IMG/VR virus record: IMGVR_UViG_3300042549_005527
Span: 1 to 60,594 of that record
Strand: one strand, 5' to 3'
From: a virus
Taxonomy: Duplodnaviria; Caudoviricetes
DNA: 60,594 nt
In this document: positions 15,099 to 33,874 of the stretch, in pieces
Position numbering within the stretch: position 1 is the stretch's first letter
How the letters are laid out: each line of letters opens with the position of its first letter
The notes under the pieces: generated by a model
Told to the model about the DNA's origin: nothing
What the model saw: the letters and a program-made list of their open reading frames with translations, nothing else
Database searches by the model: none
Position numbers and translations under genes: made by a program

Positions 15099-15222
15099 TG
15101 TGTGTCCTAGTTGCGTTGTTGATGTGTGTATTATACAATACTTTTGATAACCTGTCAACCCAAAGGGTTATTGGATTGGTCTTACAATGGGCGGGTCACT
15201 AGCCGCCCAAACGCCTTAACTT

Positions 15223-15489
15223 TTAGCACTCAGGGTCAAAGTCTGCCCACTCTTGTGCTTCGTCCGGCTGTCCGTCACGTTCTTCAGCCTCGTACTCCTC
15301 TTGCAGTTCCTCGCTCATAGTAAGGAAGCTCTCGCAGTAGTGGAACAGTTCCTCAAACGCACGGCGCTCCGTACGGTTCAACTCTCGCAGGAACTGAGGG
15401 CCTTCCTCTTGCATAGTGTCCAACACTTGCTTCAGTGCAGACAGAGTGTTCTCGTTCATGCAATACGACATATTTGGGTAGTTGCTCAT
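15223..15489 (-). CDS. Conserved phage hypothetical protein
   Basis: NMSYC..ENT..AL; C-terminal EAQEWADFDPEC. Confidence 0.75.
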   Translation of the reverse strand: MSNYPNMSYCMNENTLSALKQVLDTMQEEGPQFLRELNRTERRAFEELFHYCESFLTMSEELQEEYEAEERDGQPDEAQEWADFDPEC

Positions 15490-15558
15490 CTTAGTTCCTT
15501 AGTGCGTTGTTGATGTATGTATTATAACAGGATTTGGATACCCTGTCAACCTGTAGGG

Positions 15559-15807
15559 TTATTGCAGCACACACTTAACGATAATGCCCGGCCCGGCACT
15601 GTAGTAGCTGTCTCCACCTTGTGTAAGTGTAACGTTTTGTTTGCCGGCAGCTTCTTGCAGTGCTTTGAGCAGTTGCACATTTCCTTGGAAATAGCACTTG
15701 ACACGACGAACGTTTGAAGCGTCGGATTTAGTTTTGTTTGTGTACACTCCGTAGGAACTGGTGGAATGTTGTGCGATAATAGCACGGACTTGCTTAGTGT
15801 TTAGCAT
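15559..15807 (-). CDS. Hypothetical protein
   Basis: Own promoter and RBS. Confidence 0.7.
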   Translation of the reverse strand: MLNTKQVRAIIAQHSTSSYGVYTNKTKSDASNVRRVKCYFQGNVQLLKALQEAAGKQNVTLTQGGDSYYSAGPGIIVKCVLQ

Positions 15808-15857
15808 GTTTGCTCCTTGTTGCGATGTATATATTATAACAACTTTTTACCAACCTG

Positions 15858-16082
15858 TCAACCTAACGTAGCAGAAACCCTATCCACTGCAGGGTCATAC
15901 TTGAGGAACACTTTGCCCTCACCGCCATCTGTGTCCACTACCGTGTAGCAGAACTCGTGCCCGTTGGTAATGCCCAGGAAGCGAGCAGACTTGAGTTTAG
16001 GGCGGCCTTTGACCGGCAAGGCCTCCTCTAGCATAAAGGAGGGCATGTTAGTAAGGAGTTTAAGTTTGTCTGCTGTAATCAT
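15858..16082 (-). CDS. Hypothetical protein
   Basis: AAGGAG RBS; F.GITNG.EFCY. Confidence 0.7.
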   Translation of the reverse strand: MITADKLKLLTNMPSFMLEEALPVKGRPKLKSARFLGITNGHEFCYTVVDTDGGEGKVFLKYDPAVDRVSATLG

Positions 16083-16091
16083 GTTGTCTCC

Positions 16092-16250
16092 TTAATCTAC
16101 ATAATAGTCAATCCGCTCTACCAGTGCATCCATTGCAGTTTTTAGTTCCCATTCCACAGTCTCGCACTCTGCAATAGTCATGCCGTCGCAGGTAGCAGTT
16201 GCCAGCATGTCTTCAATCTCACGCAGTTTCTCTAAAATTGTATCACGCAT
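16092..16250 (-). CDS. 52-aa acidic protein (not in ORF track)
   Basis: Promoter 16277-16305, TAAGGAG, MRDTILEKLREIEDML... Confidence 0.65.
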   Translation of the reverse strand: MRDTILEKLREIEDMLATATCDGMTIAECETVEWELKTAMDALVERIDYYVD

Positions 16251-16332
16251 GTCTGCTCCTTAGTGTGTAAGCATGTATTATAACGCAAAACACGCACAGG
16301 GTCAACCAAAGACCCTGTGCGCTGTACAGTTA

Positions 16333-16719
16333 TTAAACGTCCGCACACTCTGCGTAAACAGCGTCCACATGTGCAGGGTCCAAACGTGCAAGCCCTGCAA
16401 TAAATGCAGCCCCTACATCGCAAGATACGTAGCAGTCCTCCTGCATCCCCTGCTCGCTGTAGCTTACATCGTTTGCTTCAGCTTCAGCAAAGCCCAGCGT
16501 TTGCAAGTATGTACGCAGTTCCTGCATAAACTGTTTGTCTGTGTAAATTAAACCCAATGCGTTGACGTCCCAAGTGTCTGTGTTAAAGTACACGCACAGC
16601 TCGCCAAAGTCTCTCTCGTTGTTAATGTACTGCAAGTCCAGCTTCACAATGTCTACTGCTTTAGCAGTGCGGCTCCAGTAGCCACGTCCGTTTGTGTGCA
16701 GTGTTGTGTATGCTTTCAT
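16333..16719 (-). CDS. Conserved phage hypothetical protein
   Basis: G.GYWS, GEL.VYF, GLIYTD, YSEQGMQ..YVS.DV. Confidence 0.8.
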   Translation of the reverse strand: MKAYTTLHTNGRGYWSRTAKAVDIVKLDLQYINNERDFGELCVYFNTDTWDVNALGLIYTDKQFMQELRTYLQTLGFAEAEANDVSYSEQGMQEDCYVSCDVGAAFIAGLARLDPAHVDAVYAECADV

Positions 16720-16801
16720 GTATCGCTCCGTTTGTTTAGTGTAAGTGTATTATAACGCAAAAAACGCACAGTGTCAACTAAAGACCCTGTGCTGTGTAGT
16801 G

Positions 16802-16945
16802 TTACTCGACAAGCTCTTCGTCAATAGCACATGCAAGCGCATTGTAAGCATTTTGTATAGCAACATGCTCGTCTAGTTCCGCTTCCTCTAAGAGGTCTTG
16901 TATGCGTAACATTGCTACAGCGAGTTTGTGTTGTAATTCTGTCAT
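16802..16945 (-). CDS. 47-aa acidic protein (not in ORF track)
   Basis: Promoter 16973-17001, AAGGAG, MTELQHKLAVAMLRIQDLLEEAELDE... Confidence 0.65.
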   Translation of the reverse strand: MTELQHKLAVAMLRIQDLLEEAELDEHVAIQNAYNALACAIDEELVE

Positions 16946-17025
16946 AGTTGCTCCTTTTTAGTGTATGTGTGTATTATAACATGAAACACAGCGTAGAGCA
17001 AGCAATAGCCCTACGCTGTGCAGGG

Positions 17026-17280
17026 TTATACTAGCAGGAAGTTTTGTGTGCGAAGCTGTGCTTTTGCTTGTGCAAGCACACGCTCAAAACTTGCTTGACG
17101 TGCAGTTGCACTTTCCTCTAGTGTTGCAAAATCGCCACTCTTAAAAACTGCATTGCTGATGCTTACAATAATGTTGCCATTTTTGTCTGTTTTGCTTTTG
17201 TCAAAAGTAACTAACAAACGGACTGTGTTTAGTTTTTTGTTAACTACTACTTTTGCGTATGCTGTGCAGTTTGTTTGCAT
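17026..17280 (-). CDS. Hypothetical protein
   Basis: Promoter 17312-17340, GGAG RBS, ATG 17280. Confidence 0.7.
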   Translation of the reverse strand: MQTNCTAYAKVVVNKKLNTVRLLVTFDKSKTDKNGNIIVSISNAVFKSGDFATLEESATARQASFERVLAQAKAQLRTQNFLLV

Positions 17281-17388
17281 TGTGAGCTCCATTGCTGTTT
17301 AGTGTAAGTGTATTATAACGCACTTTCGCCACTTTGTCAACCCCACACTGCTGGTAGGGTTATTTGTTGTGTTTTTACAACACTCAAG

Positions 17389-17443
17389 GATGGGAGGGGT
17401 TGCTACTACGGGACACTACCCCCGCACCCCTCCCGGAGCAAAC
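17389..17443 (-). ncRNA. Structured 3'-UTR motif, copy 2
   Basis: UUGCUCC-GGGAGGGG-UGCGGG-GGUAGUGU-CCCGUA..GCAA-CCCCUCCC directly after a stop codon. Confidence 0.5.
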
Positions 17444-18058
17444 TTACTCGTTAGTGGCGCTGAGTCCACCGTCCAAGTCAATATCAATGTTCTCTTCTTC
17501 CTCTTGGTCCGCTTCCCACTCAGCCACTGACTCGCTGATGCCAAACGCCTCGTCCAACTCTACAGGCAACTCTGCCGCAATCTCTTCTGAGTTCATACCA
17601 CCGTACTCGTAGAAGGCATCATCACCGTTGTCCCATACACCAGCAAAGGCCATACCTGGCTCGTAATACATGGCACGGATGCGAAAGCCCTGTTCCATCA
17701 GCAGTTGATAGGCATTGCAAGGAGGGCTCCACGCTGAGTCAAAGCCCAGCATCAAGCCACCTGGGATGTCCTGTGCTGGATTACCGTCTGCACCCACGTC
17801 CCACTTGGTTCCCCATGTGCCCACACAGAAGTCATACCAGTTGGCAAACCCGTAACGCATACGGTTCAACTCGCTTTGTTCTTCCAGCTTCTGTTGCTCC
17901 ACTGGATCGCCCAGTGAGCCTGCTACAATATGCAGATCCTCTGGCACTGGAATGAACTCTTGTAGCAAGGCACCCTTGTTGAATGCTTCACGCACACGCT
18001 CAATCATTGCTGGGTCATCGTGGTAGATCTCTACCGAGTTGTTGCACCAATTAGGCAT
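17444..18058 (-). CDS. DUF1281/YubB-like ferredoxin-fold phage protein
   Basis: MPNWCNN, WYDF...WGTKWD, FDSAWSPP, YYEPGMAFAG. Confidence 0.75.
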   Translation of the reverse strand: MPNWCNNSVEIYHDDPAMIERVREAFNKGALLQEFIPVPEDLHIVAGSLGDPVEQQKLEEQSELNRMRYGFANWYDFCVGTWGTKWDVGADGNPAQDIPGGLMLGFDSAWSPPCNAYQLLMEQGFRIRAMYYEPGMAFAGVWDNGDDAFYEYGGMNSEEIAAELPVELDEAFGISESVAEWEADQEEEENIDIDLDGGLSATNE

Positions 18059-18207
18059 TATTGAAGCTCCTCAGGTAAGTAGGCCAACAGTGTGTCGTTG
18101 GGCAGTTCCAACAACAGTTCGTAGATCGCAGTAAAGTCACCAGCGACCACATCCTTTTGTATTTGATCAATCACTTGATCAATCAAGACTTCGCGTTCAG
18201 TAATCAT
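18058..18207 (-). CDS. 49-aa acidic protein (not in ORF track)
   Basis: ATGA and TAATG overlaps with both neighbours; LIDQVIDQIQKDV..GD.TAI.ELL. Confidence 0.6.
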   Translation of the reverse strand: MITEREVLIDQVIDQIQKDVVAGDFTAIYELLLELPNDTLLAYLPEELQ

Positions 18208-18473
18208 ACAATCTCCTCTTCCCACTCGTAGAATGTAACGCTAGGATCCATCTTCTTCAACTGCCGGGCCGCAGTGACCAACTCCTTGTATCTCCGATTG
18301 ACCTCTGCACGGGGCAGTTCGCCATCGCAGGTCAAGTTCTCAGGACTCAGGGCCGCATCAATCATGTCTGCAACACGCTGACGACCCTTAGCAGTTTTGA
18401 TCTCATACTGCTCGCCTTTGAAGAAACTGTTCCAGTGATTCTTCTGTGCAATGAACTCTTGTAGTGCTTTCAT
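18204..18473 (-). CDS. Conserved phage hypothetical protein
   Basis: LSPENLTCDGEL motif; promoter and RBS. Confidence 0.8.
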   Translation of the reverse strand: MKALQEFIAQKNHWNSFFKGEQYEIKTAKGRQRVADMIDAALSPENLTCDGELPRAEVNRRYKELVTAARQLKKMDPSVTFYEWEEEIV

Positions 18474-18529
18474 CTTTGCTCCTTTGTTGCTAAGTGTGTA
18501 TTATAGCAAGAAAACAGGGGATTGTCAAC

Positions 18530-18710
18530 TACCCGCCGGTCCGTCTCCGGTGTTCAGTGTGACAAACATTATGTCCTAGTACCCCGTCAGCACACTCGTG
18601 TAAACTTTCGTTTACAACTGCCTTCATGCCCTGTAGCAACCTGTCCCCGTCGGAACCTTTCGCTTGCTACAGGCCCTAACGGACTAGGTAACCCTGTTTG
18701 TTTCTTACTA
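18530..18710 (-). ncRNA. Candidate multi-helix non-coding RNA (about 170-180 nt)
   Basis: Own consensus promoter 18717-18745; nested helices ACAAAC/GUUUGU, CCUAGU/ACUAGG, CCGUUAG/CUGACGG, CCUGUAGCAA/UUGCUACAGG, UGUAAAC-GAAA-GUUUACA. Confidence 0.7.
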
Positions 18711-18741
18711 TGCCTAATTATAGCAAGGTTTTACCAAGTTG

Positions 18742-18972
18742 TCAACCAAACGCCTTGAATAACCCTACAATGCCTATGGCTAATGCCACAACGTTGACAG
18801 TGAACTGAGGCATGTTGCGCACTCGCACAGTCCAGATCAAGAACAACACTGTACCAATGAACGCGGCCACAATGTTCCAAGGGTAGGCCTCAGGCCCCAT
18901 GGCATTGAGCACATGCATGGCAATGATGGCCACTGCCCCTGACCACTGTAGTACTTCATTAATATTACGCAT
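18742..18972 (-). CDS. Small multi-TM membrane protein
   Basis: Three hydrophobic segments, YPWNI. Confidence 0.7.
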   Translation of the reverse strand: MRNINEVLQWSGAVAIIAMHVLNAMGPEAYPWNIVAAFIGTVLFLIWTVRVRNMPQFTVNVVALAIGIVGLFKAFG

Positions 18973-19363
18973 CAATACCTTCTCGATCAACCATGTCGCT
19001 CAACTCAGCGAATTTTTGTTTGTACTTGTAGACTTCACGTTTGGCCTCATGCAGTGCTTCGCTGATGCAGTCCTCTGCGGTGCCGTCTGTCAATACCTCA
19101 CGGGCATCCTTGTACAGGCACCCGCCCAGGTAGTGAGAGCCCATCTCAAGGCTGTCAACCATTACACGTACACGCAACATGAACCAGTCCAAGTTGCCCG
19201 AGTCAATATCCCGGGCCATCTCTTTGAGATCAAAAAGGGGAACACCGTTCTCGTCCAGGCTGTCATCGAAACAGTCTGACAGACTCAAGTCCTCGTAGCT
19301 CTTGTCTACGATCACAGTAAAGCCATCGCGCTCGTAAGTTGCCAGTTCATCGTAGTATCGCAT
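18965..19363 (-). CDS. Conserved phage hypothetical protein
   Basis: I..G.L.WF..RV....YLGGC.Y; AAGGA RBS. Confidence 0.75.
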   Translation of the reverse strand: MRYYDELATYERDGFTVIVDKSYEDLSLSDCFDDSLDENGVPLFDLKEMARDIDSGNLDWFMLRVRVMVDSLEMGSHYLGGCLYKDAREVLTDGTAEDCISEALHEAKREVYKYKQKFAELSDMVDREGIDA

Positions 19364-19376
19364 GGGTGTTCCTTAA

Positions 19377-19634
19377 TTAATAGTGGTGACGTGAGCCAGG
19401 GTCGCAGAAGTCTGCATTGTCCGGAGTCCACTCTTCTGTGGGCTCGTCTTCTTCCTCTTCGTCCTCTGGCTCGTCCTCTACAAGGTCGTTAGCCAGCATC
19501 ATCTCATGCACGGAACTCTCGCTGAGCCAGCTGAGGCACATTTCTGCCACAGCACGTGGGTCCAGCAGGCCCTCGTCCATCATGTCCAGCATCCGTGTAG
19601 TTGCAGGGCGAATCTTTGCGTACGAATTAAACAT
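19377..19634 (-). CDS. Hypothetical acidic protein
   Basis: Promoter and RBS; long Glu/Asp tract. Confidence 0.7.
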   Translation of the reverse strand: MFNSYAKIRPATTRMLDMMDEGLLDPRAVAEMCLSWLSESSVHEMMLANDLVEDEPEDEEEEDEPTEEWTPDNADFCDPGSRHHY

Positions 19635-19701
19635 ATCAGCTCCTTTGTGTTTCAGTGTAAGTGTATTATAACAGAGAACTCAATCCCTGTCAACTGTAGG
19701 G

Positions 19702-20058
19702 TTATTCAACACCCACAGTGACGTCCACTTCAATGTCTGTAACTGTGCCAGCGAGATCGTACTTGATCCCAGTAACAGCCGCGCCGTAGTTCACAGCCGC
19801 AAGTCGCTCTTTGAGCATACTCTCGAGATCTCCCAGCATGTCGCCTAGGAAGTCCGCAGTGCTGTCTTTAACGCCACGCAGGGTCTCGTTGATCCCGTTG
19901 CGAGACAAGTCCTCTTGCCCGTCCATGATCATGTCAATGAACGCTTCTGTTTGGCTGATCAAGGCCTGCTCTACAATAGCGTTGATCAGCTCTCTGTTGG
20001 CAAACATAAAGGCGCTGGCCTTAAACGTCTTGTCGCCTGCTTTGAAAATCACTGACAT
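19702..20058 (-). CDS. Hypothetical protein
   Basis: Promoter and AGGAG RBS. Confidence 0.75.
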   Translation of the reverse strand: MSVIFKAGDKTFKASAFMFANRELINAIVEQALISQTEAFIDMIMDGQEDLSRNGINETLRGVKDSTADFLGDMLGDLESMLKERLAAVNYGAAVTGIKYDLAGTVTDIEVDVTVGVE

Positions 20059-20137
20059 GGTCTTCTCCTGTTGAACAAGTATGTATTATAACACTGAACA
20101 GTGAGCAGGGCAACCTATAACCCTGCTCACTGTAGGG

Positions 20138-20410
20138 TCAAACAACTTCCAGCATGGACGCAGGCACTTTCCACAAGCCCTGCTGAGTACGTACTGTGAC
20201 AAACTTGATGGCGATCTTGTCCACAACACCCTGCATGGTGATGCCTGTTTTGGTGCTGGTAAAACGCACAGCACCACCCAAGCGAACTGCTCGCTTGTTG
20301 GCATCACCCAGACGGGCCCGGGCAAACTTCACAGCGTCAATGATGCTGGACAGTTGCTCGTTGGTGAAGTTGCCTGCCAGGATCTCTGCGTTGACTGATT
20401 GAATACTCAT
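20138..20410 (-). CDS. Hypothetical protein with SH3-like C-terminus
   Basis: G..V.F....G.V.KIAIKFVTV....W.VP.SML. Confidence 0.7.
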   Translation of the reverse strand: MSIQSVNAEILAGNFTNEQLSSIIDAVKFARARLGDANKRAVRLGGAVRFTSTKTGITMQGVVDKIAIKFVTVRTQQGLWKVPASMLEVV

Positions 20411-20595
20411 CGTTGCTCCTTAGTGTGTAAGTGTATATTATACGGTAAAACCGATAACCTTGTCAACCATCGGGTTTTTACGAGCCACAGCCCGCCATGC
20501 CCGATTGGCCTTAGCATATTGCTGGGCGTTTGTAGTAAAGCCCGGGAAGCGAGTCTTGGCCCAGATCACAAAGTTCAAACGTTCAATCTCGTTCT

Positions 20596-20817
20596 TCATT
20601 CTTCAACTCCGAAATGTTGTTTAATAGTATCTGCCACATGCGGAAAATACTGCGATGAATGATCCATTGAATCTATCAAACCAGCACATTCCTTCACAAT
20701 CAACTCGGCGAATCGTTCAGCAAACTTCTGCAAGTCCTGCATGTCCATTGTGGACCAAGTGCCGGCGAATTTCTCATCCAGCGTTTGGCCCATCAGTGCT
20801 TTAATTTGTTCGTTCAT
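20596..20817 (-). CDS. Conserved phage hypothetical protein
   Basis: FAELIVKEC...IKQHFGVEE. Confidence 0.75.
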   Translation of the reverse strand: MNEQIKALMGQTLDEKFAGTWSTMDMQDLQKFAERFAELIVKECAGLIDSMDHSSQYFPHVADTIKQHFGVEE

Positions 20818-21092
20818 CACATGCTCCAGTAGAGTTCGCTTGAAGGATCGCATGAGCGGGGTGTGTCATGCGCGATCTCCACTGCCGCACCAGTCATCAA
20901 GTTGCGCACAGTTTTCATGCTGGGAGTCCAATCAAAGCGCCAGCCATCTTCGGGCCTGTACAAGGGAAACAGTTCGGCCACTGTACGGCGCATGGCATTG
21001 TCGTCCTTGACAGGCCAAACTGTAGTGCTGAACAGTCGCTCGCCAGTTCGGCAACGACGATCTGCTTTGTAGATGTATAGTGTGTAACTCAT
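20817..21092 (-). CDS. Conserved phage hypothetical protein
   Basis: YK.DRR..GER; NLMTG..VEI..DTP..CDPSSE.YWSM. Confidence 0.8.
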   Translation of the reverse strand: MSYTLYIYKADRRCRTGERLFSTTVWPVKDDNAMRRTVAELFPLYRPEDGWRFDWTPSMKTVRNLMTGAAVEIAHDTPRSCDPSSELYWSM

Positions 21093-21143
21093 CTCTGCTC
21101 CTTAGTGTGTAAGTGTCAATTATAACACGGTTTTACCTAGTTG

Positions 21144-21482
21144 TCAATCCCCGCGAACATCAGTGTTCAGCACTGGGCGAACAGCTCTGCGTATCTCAAC
21201 TTCACGCCGGTGTGCTTCTGCTTTGCCTCGTATGACTTCGTGTATATAGCATTCAATCTCTTCTTTGCTGTCTATCTTGCGAAGTTCAGCGCACAGGAGC
21301 CAGTTCTTGTCTTCAGTCTTTGCACGATAAAAGTGCTTGTTGGCACGAACACGCACGCTCTTGCCCACAGTGCTTTCTGTCTTTGCAGTCACCCCTATAT
21401 AGTTCTTGCCGTTGATGACAAGCTCGTATATGATGTGATTGCGATCGACTCGCTTTTTACGGGGTGTGTTTGTTGCTGTCAT
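21144..21482 (-). CDS. GIY-YIG-like nuclease-fold protein, probably leaderless
   Basis: HIIY...NYIGVT, R...H, AH..E..I....P.LN; ATG 6 nt after TATAAT. Confidence 0.7.
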   Translation of the reverse strand: MTATNTPRKKRVDRNHIIYELVINGKNYIGVTAKTESTVGKSVRVRANKHFYRAKTEDKNWLLCAELRKIDSKEEIECYIHEVIRGKAEAHRREVEIRRAVRPVLNTDVRGD

Positions 21483-21902
21483 GTGTGTATTATAGCAAGG
21501 TTTTACCAACGTGTCAACACTTTTTTGCAAAAACTTTTGTTGTGTTTTAGCCACACGTTTGGCACTGCCGCCGGTTAACATAACGCCAAGAGAAAACCCT
21601 AAAACCCGAAGGGCAGTAGGGTTTCTCAGTCAGTGCGTCCGCAAGTGTCAGCACACTGCCCTTCCTGCTGGTTCCTGCTCATAGAGCTAGCCTTAACTGC
21701 CGGAAGCAAACAGTCGCAGGTTCAGTTGTTGCCAAGGCCCCTACGGAACTGATTCAACCGCGCTGCCCACAGCCTCCAAGACTTCCGGCTCCTAGCTGCT
21801 TTGTCGCGGTCTATGCGCCAACTTAAGGTTTCTAATTCTATCGAGTGTATATATACACTACAGTGACTCCGCCTTCTATACAGTGTGTATTCTACAGTGT
21901 AA

Positions 21903-21980
21903 TGGTGGGCCGTCTGTGAGTCGAACACAGCACCAATGGATTATGAGTCCACTGCTCTAACCAACATGAGCTAACGGCCC
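21903..21980 (-). tRNA. tRNA with CAU anticodon, most likely tRNA-Ile2
   Basis: GGGCCGT..AGCTCA..GGTTAGAGCA GTGGA-CTCATAA-TCCAT ..CTGTG-TTCGACT-CACAG ACGGCCC-ACCA; full cloverleaf, encoded CCA, own promoter 22012-22040. Confidence 0.92.
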
Positions 21981-22289
21981 ACTGTAACTCTACTGTACAG
22001 CGTATACAGTAATTATACACTATAGGTCCGTGTGTGTCAAGTTTTGGACCGGAAAGACCCGCAATTCTGGTGGGGTTTTGGCAGCATTTTGTGCTGTTTT
22101 GGCAGTGATTCACAGTGAAATATGCTGGAAAAGGAAAGAAATCCGTGGCCAAAACACGGAATTTACACGGTAGACCTGTGTGACGTCACCGTGGGGATGA
22201 GAGGTTATAGTCAAATGGTCTACCGTGTTTCTTCCAACTTCTCACCTTTCTTGATCCTGTTCACGGATCCTGACCCGAGCCCACAGCCC

Positions 22290-25118: not shown

Positions 25119-28100
25119 ATGAGTGAAAAAAAATACTACGCTATTGGGTCCACTAGCCCTGAAGGTTGGGAACGTCTACATGCTATCATGACCCAGGATG
25201 GTACACTGGATGACAACATACCGTCTAGAGCTGTAGAATGCACTGACCTCAAAGAACACAGTCCAACCCGGGCAGTGTACCTGTTGGATGATGAAGAAGC
25301 AGCACAGGTTGCCGCGCACCCAGACATACAGTTTATCCAAATAGATCGATCTCAATACCCGGACCTGTACCCACCACGTCCGGACGAACTGCACTGGAGC
25401 GCCAGATACGCAACTCCGGCAAAACATCATAGAGATTTTGGTGTTGGCGGTTATCCTAATCCTACCACTACAGCAGATATCAACAGAGCAGGCTACCAAG
25501 TGCTGCGTGGATCGACATATGAGAATCCTTGGGCTGCTTCCTCTTCTGCTACCATCCTCAGCACTGTAACAAATGCAACAGGCGGCACTGGAATTGATAT
25601 CGATGTTATTGTGGGCGACGAAGGCTGCTGGCTAGGACACGTGGAATTTGCCAACAACACAGGCAATGGGCCTGTGGATTATAAATGGGCCAATGCGGGT
25701 AACTTGCTGTCTAGTACCGGTACCTGTGATGTATTGGATGTGGTGCTGGACGGACCTTACTACATAGATCCTGCTTGGTTTAACGCCAACCCTGGCACTA
25801 GATTGACCACACGCTGGGATGGTTCAGTATTGCCAGTTGAATCAGTGGCTAGAGATTGGTGGGGTAATGCAAGTCAGCGTTCTTCACAGTTTGCTGGTGC
25901 CGGAACAGTTGCAATACCATCGTCATATACTAGAGCAAACACTTCTGGTTCTAATCTTGCAAAGCCCACCGGCAATAGTGATGGTAACCACGGAACCCCT
26001 TGCTCGGCTCAAACCTATGGTCGAACACACGGCTGGGCTTACAATGCCAACAAGTGGGTGATTGATGCCTATGGCGGTTATGGATTCGGTATCAACGTAG
26101 ATCTCTATTTTGATGTGATGAAAATATTTCATCTCAACAAGCCGATAAATCCTGTACACGGTAATAGGAATCCTACTATTTCAAGCAACAGTTGGGGATT
26201 TAGAGCAACACAAGGATCAAGCGGAAATTATTACTTCCGTCAAGGCACAACTGGCGCAGGCGGAGTGGCATATTCTTCAAAACCCAGATTCATGCAGTAT
26301 CTTGGTAGTACAGGTGACGGTGGTAGATTCAAAGGCGAAATGCTGACCAACAATTTAACTGTGGCTGGTGACGAATTGATTGCATCGGGTGTTATATTTG
26401 TTGTGGCTGCTGGCAACAGCAATCAACAGCAAGTGAGTTCTAGCCATCCTAATTTTAACAACTATTGGAGTTCGAGTCCAGCTACTCCGCTGGCCAGTGC
26501 AACTCATGACGAGTTTGGTTCTTTCTGTTACAACACTACCAACCGCAGAGGATTCCCGCAACAGTTGGGCAAGTACACCACAGGAACCACTGTGGTATAT
26601 CCTGCAATCAATATTGGTGCCCTAGATGACAATTATCAACTTGATGGTAAAGAACGCAAGGTAAACTACAGCGACATGGGCAATGAAATTGATGTGTTTA
26701 CTCCAGGGGATGGCACACTCAGTGCAAATATGGGGTCTGGACTTTTAGTACCAAGGCATGATCAGAGAGCAGGCGGATTAACATCTTACGATGGTAGATT
26801 TAGTGGTACCAGTTCCGCATGTCCTACAGCAGCAGGTATGATTGCCACAGCACTAGAATTCAACAGAACTTGGACTTGGCAAGATGTAAGAACTTGGCTA
26901 GGTCTGCTAACAAATCAATCTGCTTCAACCTTTTATCAAGGAGTTGATCCTGCAAGTGCAACTGATGTTGCATGGAGTGATCTGAACAGTTTAATGGGTG
27001 CTGCTCCTCGGGTTCTTTACAACAGTCTTCCTGTTGTTTCTTCAATGACTCTCACAGTGGCTGTGTCGACTGTATCAGTTCCTGCTTATTCAGTATTGAG
27101 TCCTGTTACTCCTGTTGTTGCTTCCAATGGTGTTGCTCCATATGTGTACAGCATTGCTCCAACAGTGCCTGCAGGCATTCTGTACAGCACATCAACTGGA
27201 GCATTATCGGGTAGTCCAACAGTGTTATCATCCACTACTAGTTATACTGTAACTGTGCGCGATGCTGAGTTGACTGTAAAGACTGCACAATTCTCAATAG
27301 CTGTTACTGCAACTGTGTTAACAACTGTGGTAAACGTTCCTAGCACTTCTGTTAGCCCATTGATTGCGTTTACTCCTTTTGTACCAGTTACTGCCACTGG
27401 CGGCAACGGCAATGTGACTTTGGCAGTATCTCCAGCCATGCCCAGTGGTATTGTTTACAACACAACAACAGGCGCAGTATCTGGCACACCAGCTTCTGCG
27501 TTTTCCAATACCTATGCTGTAACTGCCACTGATCAATTGGAACAAAAAAGCACAGGTACATTCAACTTTTCTTCAGTGTCAATTCCACTGTCGTTGACAC
27601 TGAATACTGCTACAAAAACCCTAACGGTATTTCAGTCAGTAACTCCATTTGTACCAGTCAGTGCCACAGGCGGCAACGGAATCAAAACATGGTCAGTGTC
27701 TCCTGCTTTGCCTGCTGGACTATCATTGAACACTGCCACTGGTACTATAATTGGAACACCTACTGCATCTATTGTTGCTACCAGTTATGTTGTGAGAGTA
27801 ACTGATCAGCTTGGACTAACTGATACCAGAACATTTGTGCTATCTGTAGAAGCGCCTGCACTGACAACTACACTGACCATATCGAGAGTATTGTTTTTCC
27901 CCGATATTGCAATTGATCCATTCTCGCCAGTCACAGTCAGCAGCAGTGCTGGCAGTGTAACATTTTCAGTCAGCCCGCCGTTGCCAGATGGATTGACATT
28001 GAATACTGGAACTGGTGTAATTTCAGGTACACCCACAGTGACCGGACGTTCCAATGTGTATACCATATTGGTAGTTGATCAAGTAGGACAACAATCCGTT

Positions 28101-30206
28101 AGATCTTTTAGATTAAAAATCAAATCCAAATTAGATCTAATAGATGCAGACGACCAGAACATTGTGTATGATCGTTTGTTTTCCTTAATGGGTACAACAG
28201 TTACCGGCTACGGTGCAATACCAGCCAGTGAGCCAGTTGATTACGGTCAGATAGTAAGAGATGAAGATTGGGACAAGATGTATGATGACTTGATCAGAGT
28301 CAAGATACACCAGTATGGAGTTGACACAAACAATTTGTTGATTGCAGATCCCGGCAACATAGTATTGGACGGAGTTCAAGATAGAATCTATACATGGTCG
28401 CAACTGCACCTGGCCACATCTTCTACAGTTCATCCTTCTCAATTGTCCAGCATGACAGTGAACACCAACGAAATGAGTCCACCTGAATGGATTTCTGAAT
28501 ACGAGGATCCTGATACCTGGACCAATATAACCGGTAATGGTTATATCGCAGCAGCAGGTTTTACCTGGTTTAGACCTGCACAATTGAATTATTTTTTCAA
28601 TCTTGGCGGATCTATAACACCGCAAATTTCTTTGGGACAAGGAACAATAAGAGATTATATTGCTTGGGATCCTTTGGTACAAGCTGCCAATCAATTGAAA
28701 TTTTCCAAGACACAGTTTTATTCAGCACTTAACAGTTTGGATAAGTCCTTTGTGCAGGTTGTGAGAGGGCCTGGCAATATTGGTTCTGTTACCACTACCA
28801 GCACATATTCGGCCAATGCTATCATTATCAAGTATCAGATTGTGGACAGTAGAATACTTGCCAGTATACAATTTGTTGCAAGTTTTAGTGATAAAAAGAA
28901 GAAGAAGAACAAAAAGAAAAAGGGCGGAAACAACATTGTAGTTAGACTACAGGTCAATACCAACTTTTTGACAAGATACAGCAACAACCTCTCCGGTGGC
29001 ATTGCTGCACCTGTTCCTCAAACTCAATTGATCAACGACTGTCTGAGTATCGACACTCGTCCAGTTGATCCGTTTGTGTTTGCAACTGGATCTTCCAACG
29101 GCCCACGCAACATTGTTCTACGCAACAACTCCACACAAACTTGTAATATTTCCAATGTGTTTTTAACAGGTTATACCACTGGTACTGTGAGTCCAACGGT
29201 GTTGACAATACCTCCAAACAGTTCTGGTTCTATTAATCTGTCCTACAGCGGCAACACTGCTGGACTGTTTAAAGGATTTGTCAACATTGAATCCAACGTG
29301 AACAATTTTACCATATTCACACAGGTTGAAGTTGGATCCATAACACCTCCAGCATTGAATTTAACAACAGGCACGCTTGATATTGTATCTCAGGATTTTG
29401 TTGTAGACATGGTGGGCGGGGCATATGAAAAGTTTGATGCAGAACTATCACGATTGGGCAACGGATTTGGATTTACTGAACATGTAGAAACTGTGGCAGC
29501 AGAAACAATGGATCGATTCAATGTGACATTTGATCCTCGAGATCTTGCAACTGGAACATATGTTACCACTGCAACAGTAACAGTGTATCCGTTGGACAAC
29601 AACAGTGAGGTTGCTGTGTTCAAAGTACCAGTCAACATCAATCTAAACATTCGTCGTTACAACATTGCTAGATGGTCCAGCGCACTGGGTCCGCAGACCA
29701 GCGCACTGGGTTTGAGTTTTGATTACATAGATGGTAAAAGATATCTAACAGTGGGCATAGGTACCAATAGTCCTGTGCTGTCACAACTAGGTACCACTAG
29801 CACATTCGGAACTTGGTCAGAAGTTTCTAGAATGATCATTGAAGATCGTATGGAAACATTGCACTCTGCAGAATATTTGATCAAAAGTGATTCCAATTAT
29901 GGTTCCAATTTTGGAATAGGTGCTGCATTTGGATCTATTGTCACTGTGAAAAATCAAAAGTATGGCAATATAGAAATACTAATGAACCCTGCAAGATATC
30001 CCGGTGATGATGTTGCAACAACAAACATAGTAAAATTCTTGTCCAGTGCATTCTACTATTTTGATCCAACAGTCAATCGAATAACACAATTGGAAACAGC
30101 AACTCAATTGTCCAATGGCGGGTACACTAGATATTTCAACACATTTGACAAGGATGGATCCGTTGTGACCAGCTTGGTTGTGCCCAACGGTGGGCTGATC
30201 AACTGA
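25119..30206 (+). CDS. Subtilisin-like (S8) peptidase fused to putative Ig repeats; probable virion protein
   Basis: Triad motifs VIVGDEG, NHGT.CS, FSGTSSACP; oxyanion AAGN; four SPALP.GL.LNT.TG.I.GTPT repeats; upstream TAAATA core. Confidence 0.85.
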   Translation: MSEKKYYAIGSTSPEGWERLHAIMTQDGTLDDNIPSRAVECTDLKEHSPTRAVYLLDDEEAAQVAAHPDIQFIQIDRSQYPDLYPPRPDELHWSARYATPAKHHRDFGVGGYPNPTTTADINRAGYQVLRGSTYENPWAASSSATILSTVTNATGGTGIDIDVIVGDEGCWLGHVEFANNTGNGPVDYKWANAGNLLSSTGTCDVLDVVLDGPYYIDPAWFNANPGTRLTTRWDGSVLPVESVARDWWGNASQRSSQFAGAGTVAIPSSYTRANTSGSNLAKPTGNSDGNHGTPCSAQTYGRTHGWAYNANKWVIDAYGGYGFGINVDLYFDVMKIFHLNKPINPVHGNRNPTISSNSWGFRATQGSSGNYYFRQGTTGAGGVAYSSKPRFMQYLGSTGDGGRFKGEMLTNNLTVAGDELIASGVIFVVAAGNSNQQQVSSSHPNFNNYWSSSPATPLASATHDEFGSFCYNTTNRRGFPQQLGKYTTGTTVVYPAINIGALDDNYQLDGKERKVNYSDMGNEIDVFTPGDGTLSANMGSGLLVPRHDQRAGGLTSYDGRFSGTSSACPTAAGMIATALEFNRTWTWQDVRTWLGLLTNQSASTFYQGVDPASATDVAWSDLNSLMGAAPRVLYNSLPVVSSMTLTVAVSTVSVPAYSVLSPVTPVVASNGVAPYVYSIAPTVPAGILYSTSTGALSGSPTVLSSTTSYTVTVRDAELTVKTAQFSIAVTATVLTTVVNVPSTSVSPLIAFTPFVPVTATGGNGNVTLAVSPAMPSGIVYNTTTGAVSGTPASAFSNTYAVTATDQLEQKSTGTFNFSSVSIPLSLTLNTATKTLTVFQSVTPFVPVSATGGNGIKTWSVSPALPAGLSLNTATGTIIGTPTASIVATSYVVRVTDQLGLTDTRTFVLSVEAPALTTTLTISRVLFFPDIAIDPFSPVTVSSSAGSVTFSVSPPLPDGLTLNTGTGVISGTPTVTGRSNVYTILVVDQVGQQSVRSFRLKIKSKLDLIDADDQNIVYDRLFSLMGTTVTGYGAIPASEPVDYGQIVRDEDWDKMYDDLIRVKIHQYGVDTNNLLIADPGNIVLDGVQDRIYTWSQLHLATSSTVHPSQLSSMTVNTNEMSPPEWISEYEDPDTWTNITGNGYIAAAGFTWFRPAQLNYFFNLGGSITPQISLGQGTIRDYIAWDPLVQAANQLKFSKTQFYSALNSLDKSFVQVVRGPGNIGSVTTTSTYSANAIIIKYQIVDSRILASIQFVASFSDKKKKKNKKKKGGNNIVVRLQVNTNFLTRYSNNLSGGIAAPVPQTQLINDCLSIDTRPVDPFVFATGSSNGPRNIVLRNNSTQTCNISNVFLTGYTTGTVSPTVLTIPPNSSGSINLSYSGNTAGLFKGFVNIESNVNNFTIFTQVEVGSITPPALNLTTGTLDIVSQDFVVDMVGGAYEKFDAELSRLGNGFGFTEHVETVAAETMDRFNVTFDPRDLATGTYVTTATVTVYPLDNNSEVAVFKVPVNINLNIRRYNIARWSSALGPQTSALGLSFDYIDGKRYLTVGIGTNSPVLSQLGTTSTFGTWSEVSRMIIEDRMETLHSAEYLIKSDSNYGSNFGIGAAFGSIVTVKNQKYGNIEILMNPARYPGDDVATTNIVKFLSSAFYYFDPTVNRITQLETATQLSNGGYTRYFNTFDKDGSVVTSLVVPNGGLIN

Positions 30207-32492: not shown

Positions 32493-33874
32493 ATGAAAAT
32501 TTAGGCGACAGAATAAGAACAGTAATACCGATCATCAATGATGTGAGTCCGACATTTTGTTTGGCCAAATGGTATCATACAAATCTTTATCTCCAGACTG
32601 GAGAAACTCACAGTTGCTATCATCCAGCACCACACAAGATATCCATTGACGAAATCAAAAAAACACCAGATGCACTGCACAACACCATGCACAAGAAGGT
32701 TGAACGCAGTGAAATGCTGACAGGTGTTCAAACCAAAGGATGCAAATACTGTTGGAACATTGAAAATCTGCAACAAGATCATCTAAGTGATCGACACCTA
32801 AGGTCTGCTGCAATCTACACAGACGAACGATTCAAAACAGCATCAACTGGCAAGTGGGATCAAAGCATCAATCCTGAGTATGTGGAAATATCATTTGGTA
32901 ACGAATGCAATTTCAAATGCGGTTATTGCCATCCCAAGGCCAGTAGTCGTTTCTACAACGAAATCAAACAACACGGTCCTGTTGAATCTGTTGTGAATCA
33001 CAGATGCGATATTGATTATCTAAAAATATACGAGCGCGAAGAAGAAAACCCCTATGTGGATGCATGGTGGAAGTGGTGGCCTACCATGCGTAAGGACCTT
33101 ACCATCTTGCGTATCACTGGTGGCGAACCTTTGATGCATACCAGCACATGGAAATTGTTGGACAGTGTGCAAGAAGATCCCATGCCTTGGCTAGAACTGA
33201 ACATCAACAGCAACATGGGCATCAAGCCTGCATTGGTTAACAAGATGGTTGGCAAGGTCAATGCTATCGTTGCCAGCAACAGCATCAAAGACTTCAAACT
33301 GTTTACCAGTATTGACACCTGGGGGGCTCGTGCAGAATATATTAGAACAGGATTGGATCTAAAAATATGGGAACAGAATCTTAATTCTTATCTAACAGGC
33401 ACAGGACAGCCGATTAGTTTTATGATAACATTTAATATTTTGTCTGTGACCACTTTCAAACAGTTGCTTGTAAAGATACTGGAATGGAGACAACAGTACA
33501 ATCCTTACAATAAAACTCAGAATCCTCAAATGATTAGATTTGACACACCCTACCTGAAAGAACCCTTGCAGTATGATATGAACATCTTGCCCAAGGATCA
33601 GTTCATGATGTACATGGATGACAGTCTTGCATTCATGCAGAGCAATGTCGATGACACAGATGTTAACAAGTTTACCAGTGTTGAATTTGAAAAGTTCAGG
33701 AGAGTTGTGGACTACATGAGATCCACAGAGTATGCAGAAGAAACTTTACACCAAGGTCGTAAAGATTTTTACAATTGGTTTTCTGAACTGGACCGCCGTC
33801 GCGGCACCAACTTTGAAAAGACATTTCCGGAACTTGGTAATTTCTTTATGGAATGTGAGATGCTGAATGGATAA
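32489..33874 (+). CDS. Radical SAM protein with N-terminal twitch-like Cys domain
   Basis: CNFKCGYC, TGGEP; N-terminal CLAKW..SCYH..CKYC. Confidence 0.88.
   Translation: MNENLGDRIRTVIPIINDVSPTFCLAKWYHTNLYLQTGETHSCYHPAPHKISIDEIKKTPDALHNTMHKKVERSEMLTGVQTKGCKYCWNIENLQQDHLSDRHLRSAAIYTDERFKTASTGKWDQSINPEYVEISFGNECNFKCGYCHPKASSRFYNEIKQHGPVESVVNHRCDIDYLKIYEREEENPYVDAWWKWWPTMRKDLTILRITGGEPLMHTSTWKLLDSVQEDPMPWLELNINSNMGIKPALVNKMVGKVNAIVASNSIKDFKLFTSIDTWGARAEYIRTGLDLKIWEQNLNSYLTGTGQPISFMITFNILSVTTFKQLLVKILEWRQQYNPYNKTQNPQMIRFDTPYLKEPLQYDMNILPKDQFMMYMDDSLAFMQSNVDDTDVNKFTSVEFEKFRRVVDYMRSTEYAEETLHQGRKDFYNWFSELDRRRGTNFEKTFPELGNFFMECEMLNG

What the first reader, a model, noticed from the sequence alone, without database searches (positions are those of the whole stretch)
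18530..18745. Stand-alone, highly structured RNA of about 170-180 nt with its own promoter
Seen: a consensus promoter followed by a long interrupted basal stem (ACAAAC/GUUUGU, CCUAGU/ACUAGG, CCGUUAG/CUGACGG), a junction with a 10-bp arm capped by GCGAAAG and GUUCC/GGGAC, a 7-bp GAAA-tetraloop arm and a final CCGG hairpin. The only ORF is 32 codons without a clear RBS. It matches no tRNA, SRP, tmRNA or hammerhead pattern I recognise. Inference: an undescribed phage ncRNA, possibly a protein decoy or ribozyme, expressed early.
Basis: partly seen in the sequence, partly recalled or inferred. Interest (0 to 1): 0.85.

Follow-up and report, generated by a model that had tools for sequence, protein, structure and literature searches.

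The report
New folded RNA of giant phages
This stretch is a real gene for a tightly folded RNA of about 210 bases that makes no protein, belongs to no catalogued RNA family, and is carried once per genome by uncultured giant freshwater phages, usually at the head of their tRNA genes; its job is still unknown.

Summary
On the minus strand a perfect sigma-70 promoter (18745-18717) is followed by a strongly folding RNA.

Comparison with 74 other sequence variants from viral contigs corrects two points. The RNA is about 209 nt (18711 to 18503), not 170-180. Its true closing helix is a 17-bp end-to-end stem whose 3' strand runs through the next gene's promoter.

On 75 variants, 84% of cells pair, against 39-44% when the partners are slid. 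60 of 76 pairs show changes on both sides. The 32-codon ORF is not conserved.

Nothing matches in Rfam 15, in 50,697 phage records, or among 26 pattern hits in prokaryote genomes.

All 6 near-complete relatives (320-383 kb) carry one copy. In 40 of 75 variants it lies beside same-strand tRNA genes, mostly just ahead of tRNA-Asp or tRNA-Glu, and often behind a boxA-like leader. The window's lineage has moved it among early genes.

Best reading: a stable, trans-acting structured RNA, cut out of a longer transcript. It occupies the same niche as GOLLD and ROOL without being related to them. Its function is inferred only.

This scan met the same family before on other DNA (e1-5322397, e1-5322417).

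The parts
18717..18745 (-). Promoter of the RNA gene: TTGACA (18745-18740), 17-nt spacer, TG-extended TATAAT (18722-18717). The predicted start is at A18711 to A18709.
   Evidence: 12/12 match, TG before the second hexamer; letters read. The start site is inferred from spacing only.
18503..18711 (-). The RNA gene, about 209 nt, one copy in the window.
   Evidence: Fold of -83.7 kcal/mol, z = -5.66. Aligned with 74 other variants. Model R1 gives 64.8 bits, but the window sequence was in the seed. blastn gives 87.5-93% identity to 7 loci.
18692..18711 (-). P1, 5' strand. This terminal clamp helix begins at the predicted transcript start.
   Evidence: In the family, P1 columns show 77.9-93.8% pairing, and 21 of 23 pairs change on both sides (helices 1-2).
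18503..18519 (-). P1, 3' strand. It lies in the spacer of the downstream promoter and covers the first 3 bases of its -10 hexamer.
18675..18691 (-). 5' strands of P2 (UUAC + CCUAGU) and P3 (CCGUU), plus junction AGG. This is the most conserved block of the family (GGUUACC...UAGG).
   Evidence: helices 3-5: 97-100% paired; columns 33/233 and 37/221 change on both sides. Also kept in the divergent members L082, L019 and L362.
18629..18674 (-). P4: the long variable arm. Here it has a 10-bp outer stem, an internal loop, and GUUCC/GGGAC capped by CGAC.
   Evidence: The close relative L017 shows compensatory UGUAG/CUACA to CACAG/CUGUG. helices 6-10.
18622..18628 (-). Junction J4/5, CAUGAAG. AUGAA is almost invariant in the family.
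   Evidence: A89, G91, A92, A93 invariant; T90 at 90% or more. This block was not part of the search pattern.
18592..18621 (-). P5: variable arm, here an 8-bp stem capped by a GAAA tetraloop.
   Evidence: By eye, short P5 forms of relatives end in GNRA loops. helices 11-12.
18568..18590 (-). 3' strands of P3 (CUGACGG) and P2 (ACUAGG, then AUAAU where the family has GUAAU), with a 3-nt bulge.
18522..18567 (-). P6: the branch arm. Outer stem UUGUCA/UGACAA, whose 3' strand is the -35 hexamer of the next promoter. Apical hairpin CCGG-AGACGGA-CCGG (18550-18536).
   Evidence: Apical stem changes CCGG/CCGG to CUAG/CUAG, GUCGA/UCGAC and GUUAG/CUAAC in relatives. The same compensatory pair appears in an RNA-library contig. 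helices 13-15.
18500..18528 (-). Promoter of the downstream 89-aa gene. It overlaps the 3' part of the RNA.
   Evidence: 12/12.
18204..18473 (-). Downstream gene, 89 aa, no family match. It was used to collect related loci. A contig from an RNA library bridges the RNA and this gene.
18742..18990 (-). Upstream gene, 82 aa. It has only a weak, sub-threshold DUF6552 match. Its stop codon lies inside the RNA promoter's -35 region.

Best explanation
It is the gene of a stable, structured, non-coding RNA of about 209 nt. It belongs to an uncatalogued family that a clade of uncultured jumbo phages (320-383 kb) carries once per genome.

SHOWN
- The fold is conserved with many compensatory changes. A long AU-rich terminal helix P1 clamps the two ends. 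P1, P2 and P3 follow each other on the 5' strand without unpaired bases. P6 branches off at the first three-way junction. P4 and P5 fork at the second.
- About 60-70 nearly invariant bases sit at the two junctions and in the loops of P6.
- It does not code for protein.
- In most relatives it lies in or at the head of a tRNA operon.

INFERRED
- Host sigma-70 RNA polymerase starts at the first base of P1. There is no terminator, so transcription runs on into the 89-aa gene.
- The RNA is then cut out at P1. RNase III is the likely enzyme, as for the processing stems of rRNA.
- In relatives whose P1 abuts a tRNA, RNase P makes the 3' end.
- P1 then shields both ends.
- The compact core acts in trans by binding a partner, most likely a protein or RNA of the translation or tRNA machinery. 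It is made together with the phage tRNAs, in the same genomic niche as GOLLD and ROOL.
For: STRUCTURE
- On 75 distinct variants, 84.0% of 5379 cells pair, against 39.0-43.7% with the partners slid.
- The covariation score is 0.402, against 0.071-0.095 slid.
- 60 of 76 pairs change on both sides.
- 0 of 500 shuffles reach any of the five measures.
- The top mutual-information pairs are the proposed helices.
- Strand: many G-U pairs, for example columns 246/356 with GU in 68 rows; the minus strand also folds better.

NOT CODING
- The ORF from the conserved AUG runs 2 to 46 codons.
- 5 of 75 variants lack the ATG.
- The GUAAUG block is read in all three frames: 36, 21 and 13 of the 70 variants with ATG.

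ONE COPY
- There is 1 hit in the window.
- There is 1 hit each in 5 of 5 near-complete genomes chosen because they hold it.
- There is 1 hit in the 1 near-complete genome chosen through a neighbouring protein (G006).

tRNA LINK
- 40 of 75 variants have same-strand tRNAs within 1.5 kb. By my count of the table, the first one downstream is Asp in 24, Glu in 10, Ser in 2, Leu in 2, Gln in 1 and Met in 1.
- In 17 of 75 variants the end of P1 lies -4 to +12 nt from the next tRNA.
- 30 of 75 variants have the motif GTTCNTTAA[AC]A upstream; in 28 of them it lies 53-70 nt before the core. It resembles rrn boxA 5'-UGCUCUUUA-3' as printed in PMC2724277.

PROMOTER AND START
- Promoter.
- By my count of the table, the promoter of 28 of 75 variants begins 49-59 nt before the core, so that transcription would start at the foot of P1.

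RNA LIBRARY
- A 510-nt contig of a freshwater metatranscriptome covers 18267-18703 (35 differing letters and 5 gaps over 437 positions).
- It stops 6-8 nt from the predicted start and bridges into the next gene.
Against: - No experiment and no raw reads. Contigs cannot prove transcription, ends or abundance, and DNA can be present in an RNA library.
- RNase III and RNase P processing are inferred from geometry only.
- No partner is known. The neighbouring genes have no family. TROVE/Ro and RtcB are absent from 5 of 5 near-complete genomes.
- In this window there is no tRNA beside the RNA; the nearest is tRNA-Met at 21903-21980. The tRNA link is therefore not obligatory.
- 73 of the 75 variants were collected with a 16-base pattern from the 5' block. 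The invariance of that block is partly forced, and the sample is biased towards close kin.
- Related sequences can beat column shuffles without any structure. The slid controls are the fairer test, and they agree.
Confidence: 0.55

Rival explanations
1. It is a cis-acting leader. The folded RNA stays part of the transcript and controls the genes behind it, as a riboswitch-like sensor, an mRNA stabiliser, or a processive antitermination element like HK022 put or EAR (both recalled).
For: - It always points the same way as the genes behind it, with no terminator between.
- It often comes directly after strong promoters at the head of long untranslated tRNA operons.
- An RNA-library contig bridges the RNA and the next gene.
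Against: - The genes behind it differ: tRNA-Asp, Glu, Ser or Leu, the 89-aa protein, and others.
- In the window a second full promoter sits between the RNA core and the next gene.
- P1 closes the RNA off, and no alternative pairing with a terminator or ribosome-binding site is seen.
- In 17 of 75 variants the next tRNA starts within -4 to +12 nt of P1, so RNase P would sever the RNA from the transcript.
- 30 of 75 variants already carry a separate boxA-like motif that could serve antitermination.
Confidence: 0.13
2. It is an RNA-only self-assembling particle. Copies of the RNA join into a closed oligomer or cage, as shown for GOLLD and ROOL and reported for the short manA RNA.
For: - It shares the niche of GOLLD and ROOL: phage-encoded and near tRNA islands (passages of 10.1101/2024.12.08.627333).
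- A GOLLD gene lies in the same tRNA array in L187.
- RNAs under 200 nt are reported to form cages (abstract and outline of 10.64898/2026.07.01.735769).
- It has conserved loops, and GNRA caps on P5.
Against: - No loop pair is more complementary than shuffles; the best, L4-L6, is 4.87 against 4.43 bp.
- The P4-loop/P6-loop register shows no covariation: A-G 17, A-U 16, C-G 15, C-U 10.
- The conserved P6 loop is self-complementary only in the variants with U at loop position 6. By the tally that is 27 against 32 with G (62 loops matched).
- Nothing else was tested.
Confidence: 0.12
3. It is a ribozyme, either self-cleaving or acting on tRNA precursors.
For: - It has a high density of invariant unpaired bases at two junctions, with GNRA caps.
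- It lies next to RNA substrates that need processing.
Against: - No match to any ribozyme family of Rfam 15, even at E up to 10.
- No pseudoknot signal.
- It is single-copy and closed by a long helix, unlike the small, scattered self-cleaving classes (recalled).
- Host RNase P and RNase III suffice for the processing proposed.
Confidence: 0.07
4. It is a small protein gene (the 32-codon ORF), or a mobile element whose terminal inverted repeats merely look like P1, or a chance fold.
For: - An ORF of 32 codons from AUG exists.
- P1 is a 17-31 bp inverted repeat.
- The element sits at different places in related phages.
Against: - ORF length is 2-46 codons, 5 of 75 variants lack ATG, and all three frames are used.
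- There is one copy per genome.
- G-U pairs fix the strand, and the internal helices covary.
- z = -5.66.
Confidence: 0.02

Closest known systems
GOLLD (RF02032) and ROOL RNAs: large ornate RNAs of phages and prophages
   Same: - Phage-encoded, intricately folded, function unknown, and found near tRNA islands (passages of 10.1101/2024.12.08.627333).
- A true GOLLD gene sits in the same tRNA array as a member of this family (L187 10468-10931, 200.8 bits).
   Different: - No sequence or structure match to either Rfam model.
- About 210 nt, against more than 400-800 nt.
- Two simple three-way junctions, with no pseudoknot detected.
- Oligomer formation was not tested.
Phage T4 rnaC and rnaD (species 1 and 2 stable RNAs, NC_000866 70908-71171)
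   Same: Small stable RNAs of unknown function, encoded inside a phage tRNA cluster and presumably co-processed with the tRNAs (annotation).
   Different: - Model R1 finds nothing in T4 at E up to 1.
- The T4 RNAs are 139 and 119 nt, and rnaC ends in a tRNA-like T arm.
- They have no long terminal clamp and none of the conserved blocks.
rRNA operon layout: boxA antitermination leader plus long processing stems cut by RNase III
   Same: - Strong promoter, hairpin, a boxA-like motif (UGUUCUUUA-type against rrn 5'-UGCUCUUUA-3', PMC2724277), then a stable RNA enclosed by a long helix of its two flanks, then tRNAs.
   Different: - This is a likeness of operon design only; the RNA is no rRNA.
- boxA function and the RNase III cut are not tested.
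- The window itself lacks the boxA-like leader.
Y RNAs / YrlA (Ro-bound RNAs with an end-to-end stem, some in phages; recalled)
   Same: About 100-200 nt, with 5' and 3' ends paired in a long stem that carries a structured head.
   Different: - No Rfam match.
- No TROVE/Ro gene and no RtcB in 5 of 5 near-complete genomes, with positive controls ringing.
- No tRNA-like module.
The same uncatalogued family as noted earlier by this scan (e1-5322397, e1-5322417)
   Same: - The family member L112 shares 50 of 67 short words with both earlier findings, and it aligns with the window RNA.
- The traits agree: about 215-230 nt, an AU-rich closing stem, head of tRNA operons or a stand-alone early gene, once per genome, beside Asp and Glu tRNAs.
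   Different: - The window's own sequence shares no indexed words with them. It is a diverged, shortened form in which P6 and P1 overlap the next promoter.
- A kissing loop named in one of the notes found no support here.

Membership tests
Uncatalogued jumbo-phage RNA family (alignment A1, model R1) | Conserved core blocks in order (GGUUACC, UAGG, AUGAA, CGG-A, UAGG..GUAAUG) and helices P2-P5 | tested here: met
   Aligned in A1 and A2. R1 gives 64.8 bits, E = 9.7e-13, but the window was in the seed, so that match is by construction. Independent support: blastn gives 87.5-93% identity to 7 of 95 neighbour-derived loci. One block differs: the window has AUAAUG where the family has GUAAUG.
Uncatalogued jumbo-phage RNA family (alignment A1, model R1) | Long terminal helix P1 joining the 5' and 3' ends | tested here: met
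   17 pairs with a 3-nt bulge in the minimum-energy fold. In unconstrained folds with 40-nt flanks, 60 of 75 variants show a P1 5' span of 16 nt or more.
Uncatalogued jumbo-phage RNA family (alignment A1, model R1) | Position in or at the head of a tRNA operon | tested here: not met
   The only tRNA in the window is tRNA-Met at 21903-21980, 3.2 kb away. 35 of 75 variants likewise have no tRNA within 1.5 kb. This is a frequent trait of the family, not a universal one.
Uncatalogued jumbo-phage RNA family (alignment A1, model R1) | Single copy per genome | tested here: met
   1 hit in the 60.6-kb window. 1 hit in each of 6 of 6 near-complete genomes. The window record itself is only 17% complete.
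GOLLD / ROOL | Match to the Rfam covariance model at the gathering score | tested here: not met
   No match, even at E up to 10. As a positive control, the GOLLD model scores 200.8 bits on L187.
T4 rnaC / rnaD | Sequence or structure likeness to the T4 RNAs | tested here: not met
   R1 finds nothing in NC_000866. The folds differ by eye.
tRNA / tmRNA | Cloverleaf or tRNA-like domain | tested here: not met
   ARAGORN finds only tRNA-Met at 21903-21980. Rfam finds only that tRNA.
Y RNA / YrlA | Rfam match, and a Ro (TROVE) partner gene | tested here: not met
   No Rfam match. TROVE is found in 0 of 5 near-complete genomes, while the controls ring. A host-encoded Ro cannot be excluded.
Riboswitch, T-box or other cis-regulator | A constant downstream gene class, and an expression platform that competes with the aptamer | tested here: not met
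   The downstream genes vary. No terminator-like site lies between 18500 and 18745. No Rfam match.
Self-cleaving ribozyme classes and phi29 pRNA (Rfam) | Match to the family model | tested here: not met
   None at E up to 10. Catalysis itself cannot be tested with these tools.
Small protein gene | Conserved reading frame and length | tested here: not met
   2-46 codons, 5 of 75 variants without ATG, three frames used.

The most novel reading that the evidence does not exclude
The RNA is a new functional RNA class of the phage's own translation toolkit. It would be made with the tRNAs from an rrn-like, boxA-led stable-RNA operon, and it would act directly on tRNA or the ribosome.

One form of this idea: it docks tRNA-Asp through the GAY triplet shown in the 7-nt P6 loop. 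The pattern .GA[CU]G.. is found downstream of GUAAUG in 62 of 75 variants, although a few of those matches lie outside the apical loop. tRNA-Asp is the first gene behind the RNA in 24 of the 40 tRNA-linked variants. Another form: it builds an RNA-only particle that holds tRNAs.

Nothing here excludes this reading, and nothing tests it. The triplet-tRNA link may be plain inherited gene order.
Probability: 0.08. Interest if true: 0.9.

Novelty: new variant of a known kind. Interest (0 to 1): 0.7.

Why it matters
Phages are known to carry a few elaborate RNAs of unknown function beside their tRNA genes. GOLLD and ROOL turned out to build RNA-only cages. This family adds a third, unrelated and much smaller fold to that niche.

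- It is conserved as a single copy across a clade of 320-383 kb phages.
- In many members it sits in an operon laid out like a ribosomal RNA operon: strong promoters, a boxA-like leader, a stable RNA in a processing stem, then tRNAs.
- At about 210 nt, with clear helices and about 75 natural variants, it is an easy target for chemical probing, cryo-EM, pull-downs and processing assays.
- Learning its partner could show how giant phages rework translation or RNA metabolism.
- The window also shows an unusually tight overlap. The next gene's -35 hexamer and spacer are the 3' strands of two RNA helices. In the L004, L023, L178 and L197 variants, compensatory changes keep both the promoter and the helix.

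Tried and rejected
- **blastn against phage records.** The window RNA and the L112 member were each searched against 50,697 phage records in distant mode: no match. A 5-kb query found only tRNA-Met look-alikes.
- **Pattern scan of 185,579 prokaryote species genomes.** It gave 26 hits, and none carries the downstream GTAATGA block, so all are chance.
- **A looser pattern anchored on the 3' blocks** (after the slip). It gave 117 stretches, almost all chance. R1 confirmed 1 (L275) of the 100 new loci searched; 14 further new loci were not searched. One stretch (L097) was already known. It was too noisy for an unbiased count of 5' block conservation.
- **R1 on five cultured phages** (S-SSM7, S-SCSM2R, Erwinia phage Hallingskeid, PBECO4, T4): nothing at E up to 1. 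The tool notes that an empty answer shows little.
- **Y RNA idea.** No TROVE and no RtcB in G001-G005.
- **Pseudoknots and kissing loops.**
  - Mutual information gave only isolated extra pairs.
  - Loop-loop complementarity was no better than shuffles.
  - The P4-loop/P6-loop register does not covary.
- **Start-codon or split ribosome-binding-site mimic at UAGG...AUGAA.** Dropped, because 5 of 75 variants, plus L082, L019 and L362, have ACG or AAG there.
- **Double T-loop idea for the second junction.** Dropped by eye, because J5/3 is variable.
- **Sequencing runs.** Only one RNA run holds any part, with a word share of 0.05. Parts of the stretch without cover say nothing.
- **Neighbouring genes.** The neighbouring small proteins gave no Pfam family passing its cut-off. 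PHROGs gave nothing for the three genes nearest the RNA and only unknown-function families for the 204-aa protein.
- **Papers.** Three full-text searches found no paper on this RNA.
Full report
WHAT IS THERE

The window is an IMG/VR virus record of 60,594 bases, rated 17% complete. Its relatives reach 320-383 kb. Between about 15 and 22.4 kb, small genes lie on the minus strand. Each sits behind a perfect TTGACA-17/18-TATAAT promoter. There are 12 such 12/12 sites on that strand in 15-24 kb. In all, 20 promoter-like sites were found, against 9.3 +/- 3.4 in shuffles.

The finding lies between two of these promoters, at 18745-18717 and 18528-18500.
- The stretch 18530-18705 folds at -62.6 kcal/mol, z = -4.25.
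- The plus strand folds worse, at -49.5 kcal/mol.
- Rfam 15 gives only a tRNA-Met elsewhere in the window.
- At E up to 10, Rfam gives one chance snoRNA hit around the finding.

RELATIVES

The 89-aa protein encoded just downstream has more than 583 relatives in viral contigs, and 80 loci were kept. The 82-aa upstream protein gave 15 more loci.
- blastn found the window's RNA form in 7 of these 95 loci, at 87.5-93% identity.
- A 9-base motif then revealed a longer form of the same RNA in further loci.
- After removing duplicates, edge cases and 4 chance hits, 75 distinct variants remained.
- The same pattern in one genome for each of 185,579 prokaryote species gave 26 hits. None has the downstream blocks.
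- blastn against 50,697 phage records found nothing, for the window form or for a typical member.

THE FOLD

With the flank included (18496-18715), the minimum-energy fold changes. A long terminal helix P1 forms between 18711-18692 and 18519-18503. For 18503-18711 the energy is -83.7 kcal/mol, z = -5.66. This is the architecture of the whole family:
- P1 is 17-31 bp and AU-rich.
- P2 and P3 continue P1 on the 5' strand.
- P6 branches at the first three-way junction.
- P4 and P5 fork at the second junction.
- J4/5 (AUGAA) is nearly invariant.
- Short P5 forms are capped by GNRA loops.
- P6 carries a conserved 7-nt loop (AGACGKU) and a purine-rich internal loop.

I projected the fold of one typical member (L112), plus three P2 pairs, onto the 75-row alignment A1.
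- 84.0% of 5379 cells pair, against 39.0-43.7% when the 3' partners are slid by 1-3 columns.
- The covariation score is 0.402, against 0.071-0.095 slid.
- 60 of 76 pairs change on both sides.
- No shuffle of 500 reaches any measure.

A caveat applies. 73 of the 75 rows were found with a pattern covering the 5' strands of P2 and P3, so the invariance of those bases is partly forced. The free positions in that pattern do covary (columns 33/233: CG 48, GC 20, AU 4, UA 2). Three divergent members found only by the covariance model R1 (L082, L019, L362) keep GGU[UC]ACC, UAGG, CA[CA]GAA and GUAAUG, and they show further compensatory changes in P2 and P3.

A mutual-information scan returned the proposed helices at the top and no run of extra pairs. 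Loop-loop complementarity is no better than shuffles.

NOT A PROTEIN GENE

From the conserved AUG the open frame runs 2 to 46 codons. 5 of 75 variants have no ATG. The GUAAUG block downstream is read in all three frames, by 36, 21 and 13 of the 70 variants with ATG.

CONTEXT

In 40 of 75 variants, same-strand tRNA genes lie within 1.5 kb, and many loci hold 10-31 tRNAs.
- By my count of that table, the first tRNA downstream is Asp in 24, Glu in 10, Ser in 2, Leu in 2, Gln in 1 and Met in 1.
- In 17 of 75 variants the outermost P1 pair lies -4 to +12 nt from the 5' end of that tRNA. An RNase P cut would then leave the RNA with a flush end.
- By my reading, an upstream tRNA ends 16-23 nt before the conserved core in 5 variants; for 2 of them one search places that end at the foot of P1.
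- In 30 of 75 variants a motif GTTCNTTAA[AC]A lies upstream; in 28 of them it is 53-70 nt before the core, mostly behind a sigma-70-type promoter and a hairpin. [quoted passage not shown]
- By my count of the table, the promoter of another 28 of 75 variants, the window among them, begins 49-59 nt before the core. Transcription would then begin at the first base of P1.

So the usual setting resembles an rRNA operon: promoters, a boxA-like leader, a stable RNA held in a long stem of its flanks, then tRNAs. In 11 such loci Rfam also finds a GOLLD RNA (L187) and a permuted tmRNA (L104). The other 148 of the 150 rows shown are tRNAs, and 85 lower-scoring rows were not shown.

COPY NUMBER AND SPREAD

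Model R1 covers the 5' domain P2-P5, with 128 positions.
- It finds 24 matches in 96 sources. That is one in the window and 23 in the 95 neighbour-derived loci.
- It finds exactly one match in each of five near-complete genomes chosen because they hold the RNA.
- It finds one divergent match (46.7 bits) in the one near-complete genome chosen through the 89-aa protein alone. That copy again sits in front of tRNA-Glu, Tyr and Asp.
- Three of the four fragmentary records (25-34% complete) had no match, which says nothing.
- Five cultured phages have none. Among them are two cyanophages whose structural protein is about 45% identical to the N-terminal third of the window's 1695-aa protein.

TRANSCRIPTION

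One freshwater metatranscriptome run holds a part of the stretch. A 510-nt contig of that run covers 18267-18703 (35 differing letters and 5 gaps over 437 positions).
- It ends 6-8 nt inside the predicted start.
- It runs across the second promoter into the 89-aa gene.
- It carries two compensatory pairs in the P6 hairpin.

Contigs cannot prove a start, a strand or a level, and an RNA library can hold DNA. This is a hint, not proof.

HOW IT MOST LIKELY WORKS

Shown:
- a conserved, non-coding, single-copy fold whose ends are clamped;
- promoter geometry;
- frequent direct abutment to tRNAs.

Inferred:
- Host RNA polymerase makes it early.
- With no terminator, it is cut out of a longer transcript at P1. 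RNase III is the likely enzyme, by analogy with rRNA processing stems, which I recall from the literature. Where a tRNA abuts, RNase P would make the cut.
- P1 then protects both ends.
- The core, rich in invariant junction bases, binds a partner in trans.

The niche and the co-production with tRNAs point to the translation or tRNA sphere, as is suspected for GOLLD and ROOL. No partner is known. The neighbouring genes have no family. Ro and RtcB are absent from 5 of 5 near-complete genomes. My odds:
- real structured RNA family: about 0.95;
- excised stable trans-acting RNA: about 0.65;
- a specific partner class: no better than 0.3.

The rivals are a cis-acting leader, an RNA-only assembly, and a ribozyme. 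They are set out in their own section, with what would refute each.

COMPARISON AND NOVELTY

The RNA works like, or at least lives like, GOLLD, ROOL and the T4 rnaC/rnaD RNAs, but it fails every membership test for them. It matches nothing in Rfam 15, and three full-text searches found no description. Supplements could not be read.

This scan has met the same family before on other DNA. The member L112 shares 50 of 67 words with e1-5322397 and e1-5322417. Those notes agree on size, closing stem, copy number and tRNA neighbours. The kissing loop named in one of them found no support in my tests. These are AI notes, not independent evidence.

What this window adds is a diverged, compact form. 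P6 is shortened, the RNA has left the tRNA genes, and the next promoter is written into the 3' strands of P6 and P1.

Noticed in passing
window 15130-22040, minus strand: Twelve perfect 12/12 sigma-70 consensus promoters lie in about 7 kb, each ahead of a small ORF of unknown family or of tRNA-Met. This is an early-gene cassette region with very few terminator-like sites.
   Followed up: partly
L104, L112, L121, L131 and others, 53-70 nt upstream of the RNA core (e.g. L112 around 1840-1860, minus strand): A boxA-like motif (GTTCNTTAA[AC]A) behind a hairpin and one or two sigma-70-type promoters heads the RNA-plus-tRNA operon in 30 of 75 variants. It resembles rrn boxA as printed in PMC2724277. 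This suggests Nus-factor antitermination of phage tRNA operons.
   Followed up: partly
L187 10468-10931 (+); L104 6264-6540 (+): A GOLLD RNA (200.8 bits) and a permuted tmRNA (96.2 bits) lie in the same phage tRNA arrays that hold members of this RNA family.
   Followed up: no
L004, L023, L178, L197 (3' part of the RNA); window 18500-18528: The next gene's -35 hexamer TTGACA is the 3' strand of the outer P6 stem. The 5' strand has changed to match (GUGCA/UGCAC becomes GUCAA/UUGAC). One stretch therefore serves both as promoter and as RNA helix.
   Followed up: partly
window 21903-21980 (-), promoter 22040-22012: A lone tRNA-Met (CAT) has its own perfect promoter. Its closest DNA matches are tRNAs of jumbo phages of enterobacteria and Vibrio, at 80-85%.
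   Followed up: no
window 32489-36351 (+): Three consecutive genes have weak radical-SAM and/or SPASM domain matches; the radical-SAM scores are below Pfam's cut-off and the SPASM scores above it. This may be a peptide- or nucleotide-modification cluster.
   Followed up: no
window 25119-30206 (+): A 1695-aa protein. Its first 630 or so residues are about 45% identical to proteins of T4-like cyanophages (S-SSM7, S-SSM6a, S-SCSM2R), annotated there with an S8 peptidase domain next to baseplate genes. It hints at a cyanobacterial host or a shared virion module.
   Followed up: no
L104, L131, L147, L154 about 100-250 nt upstream of the RNA: Two near-identical promoter-plus-leader units stand in tandem, each preceded by a GC-rich hairpin that follows the previous tRNA and looks like a terminator.
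   Followed up: no
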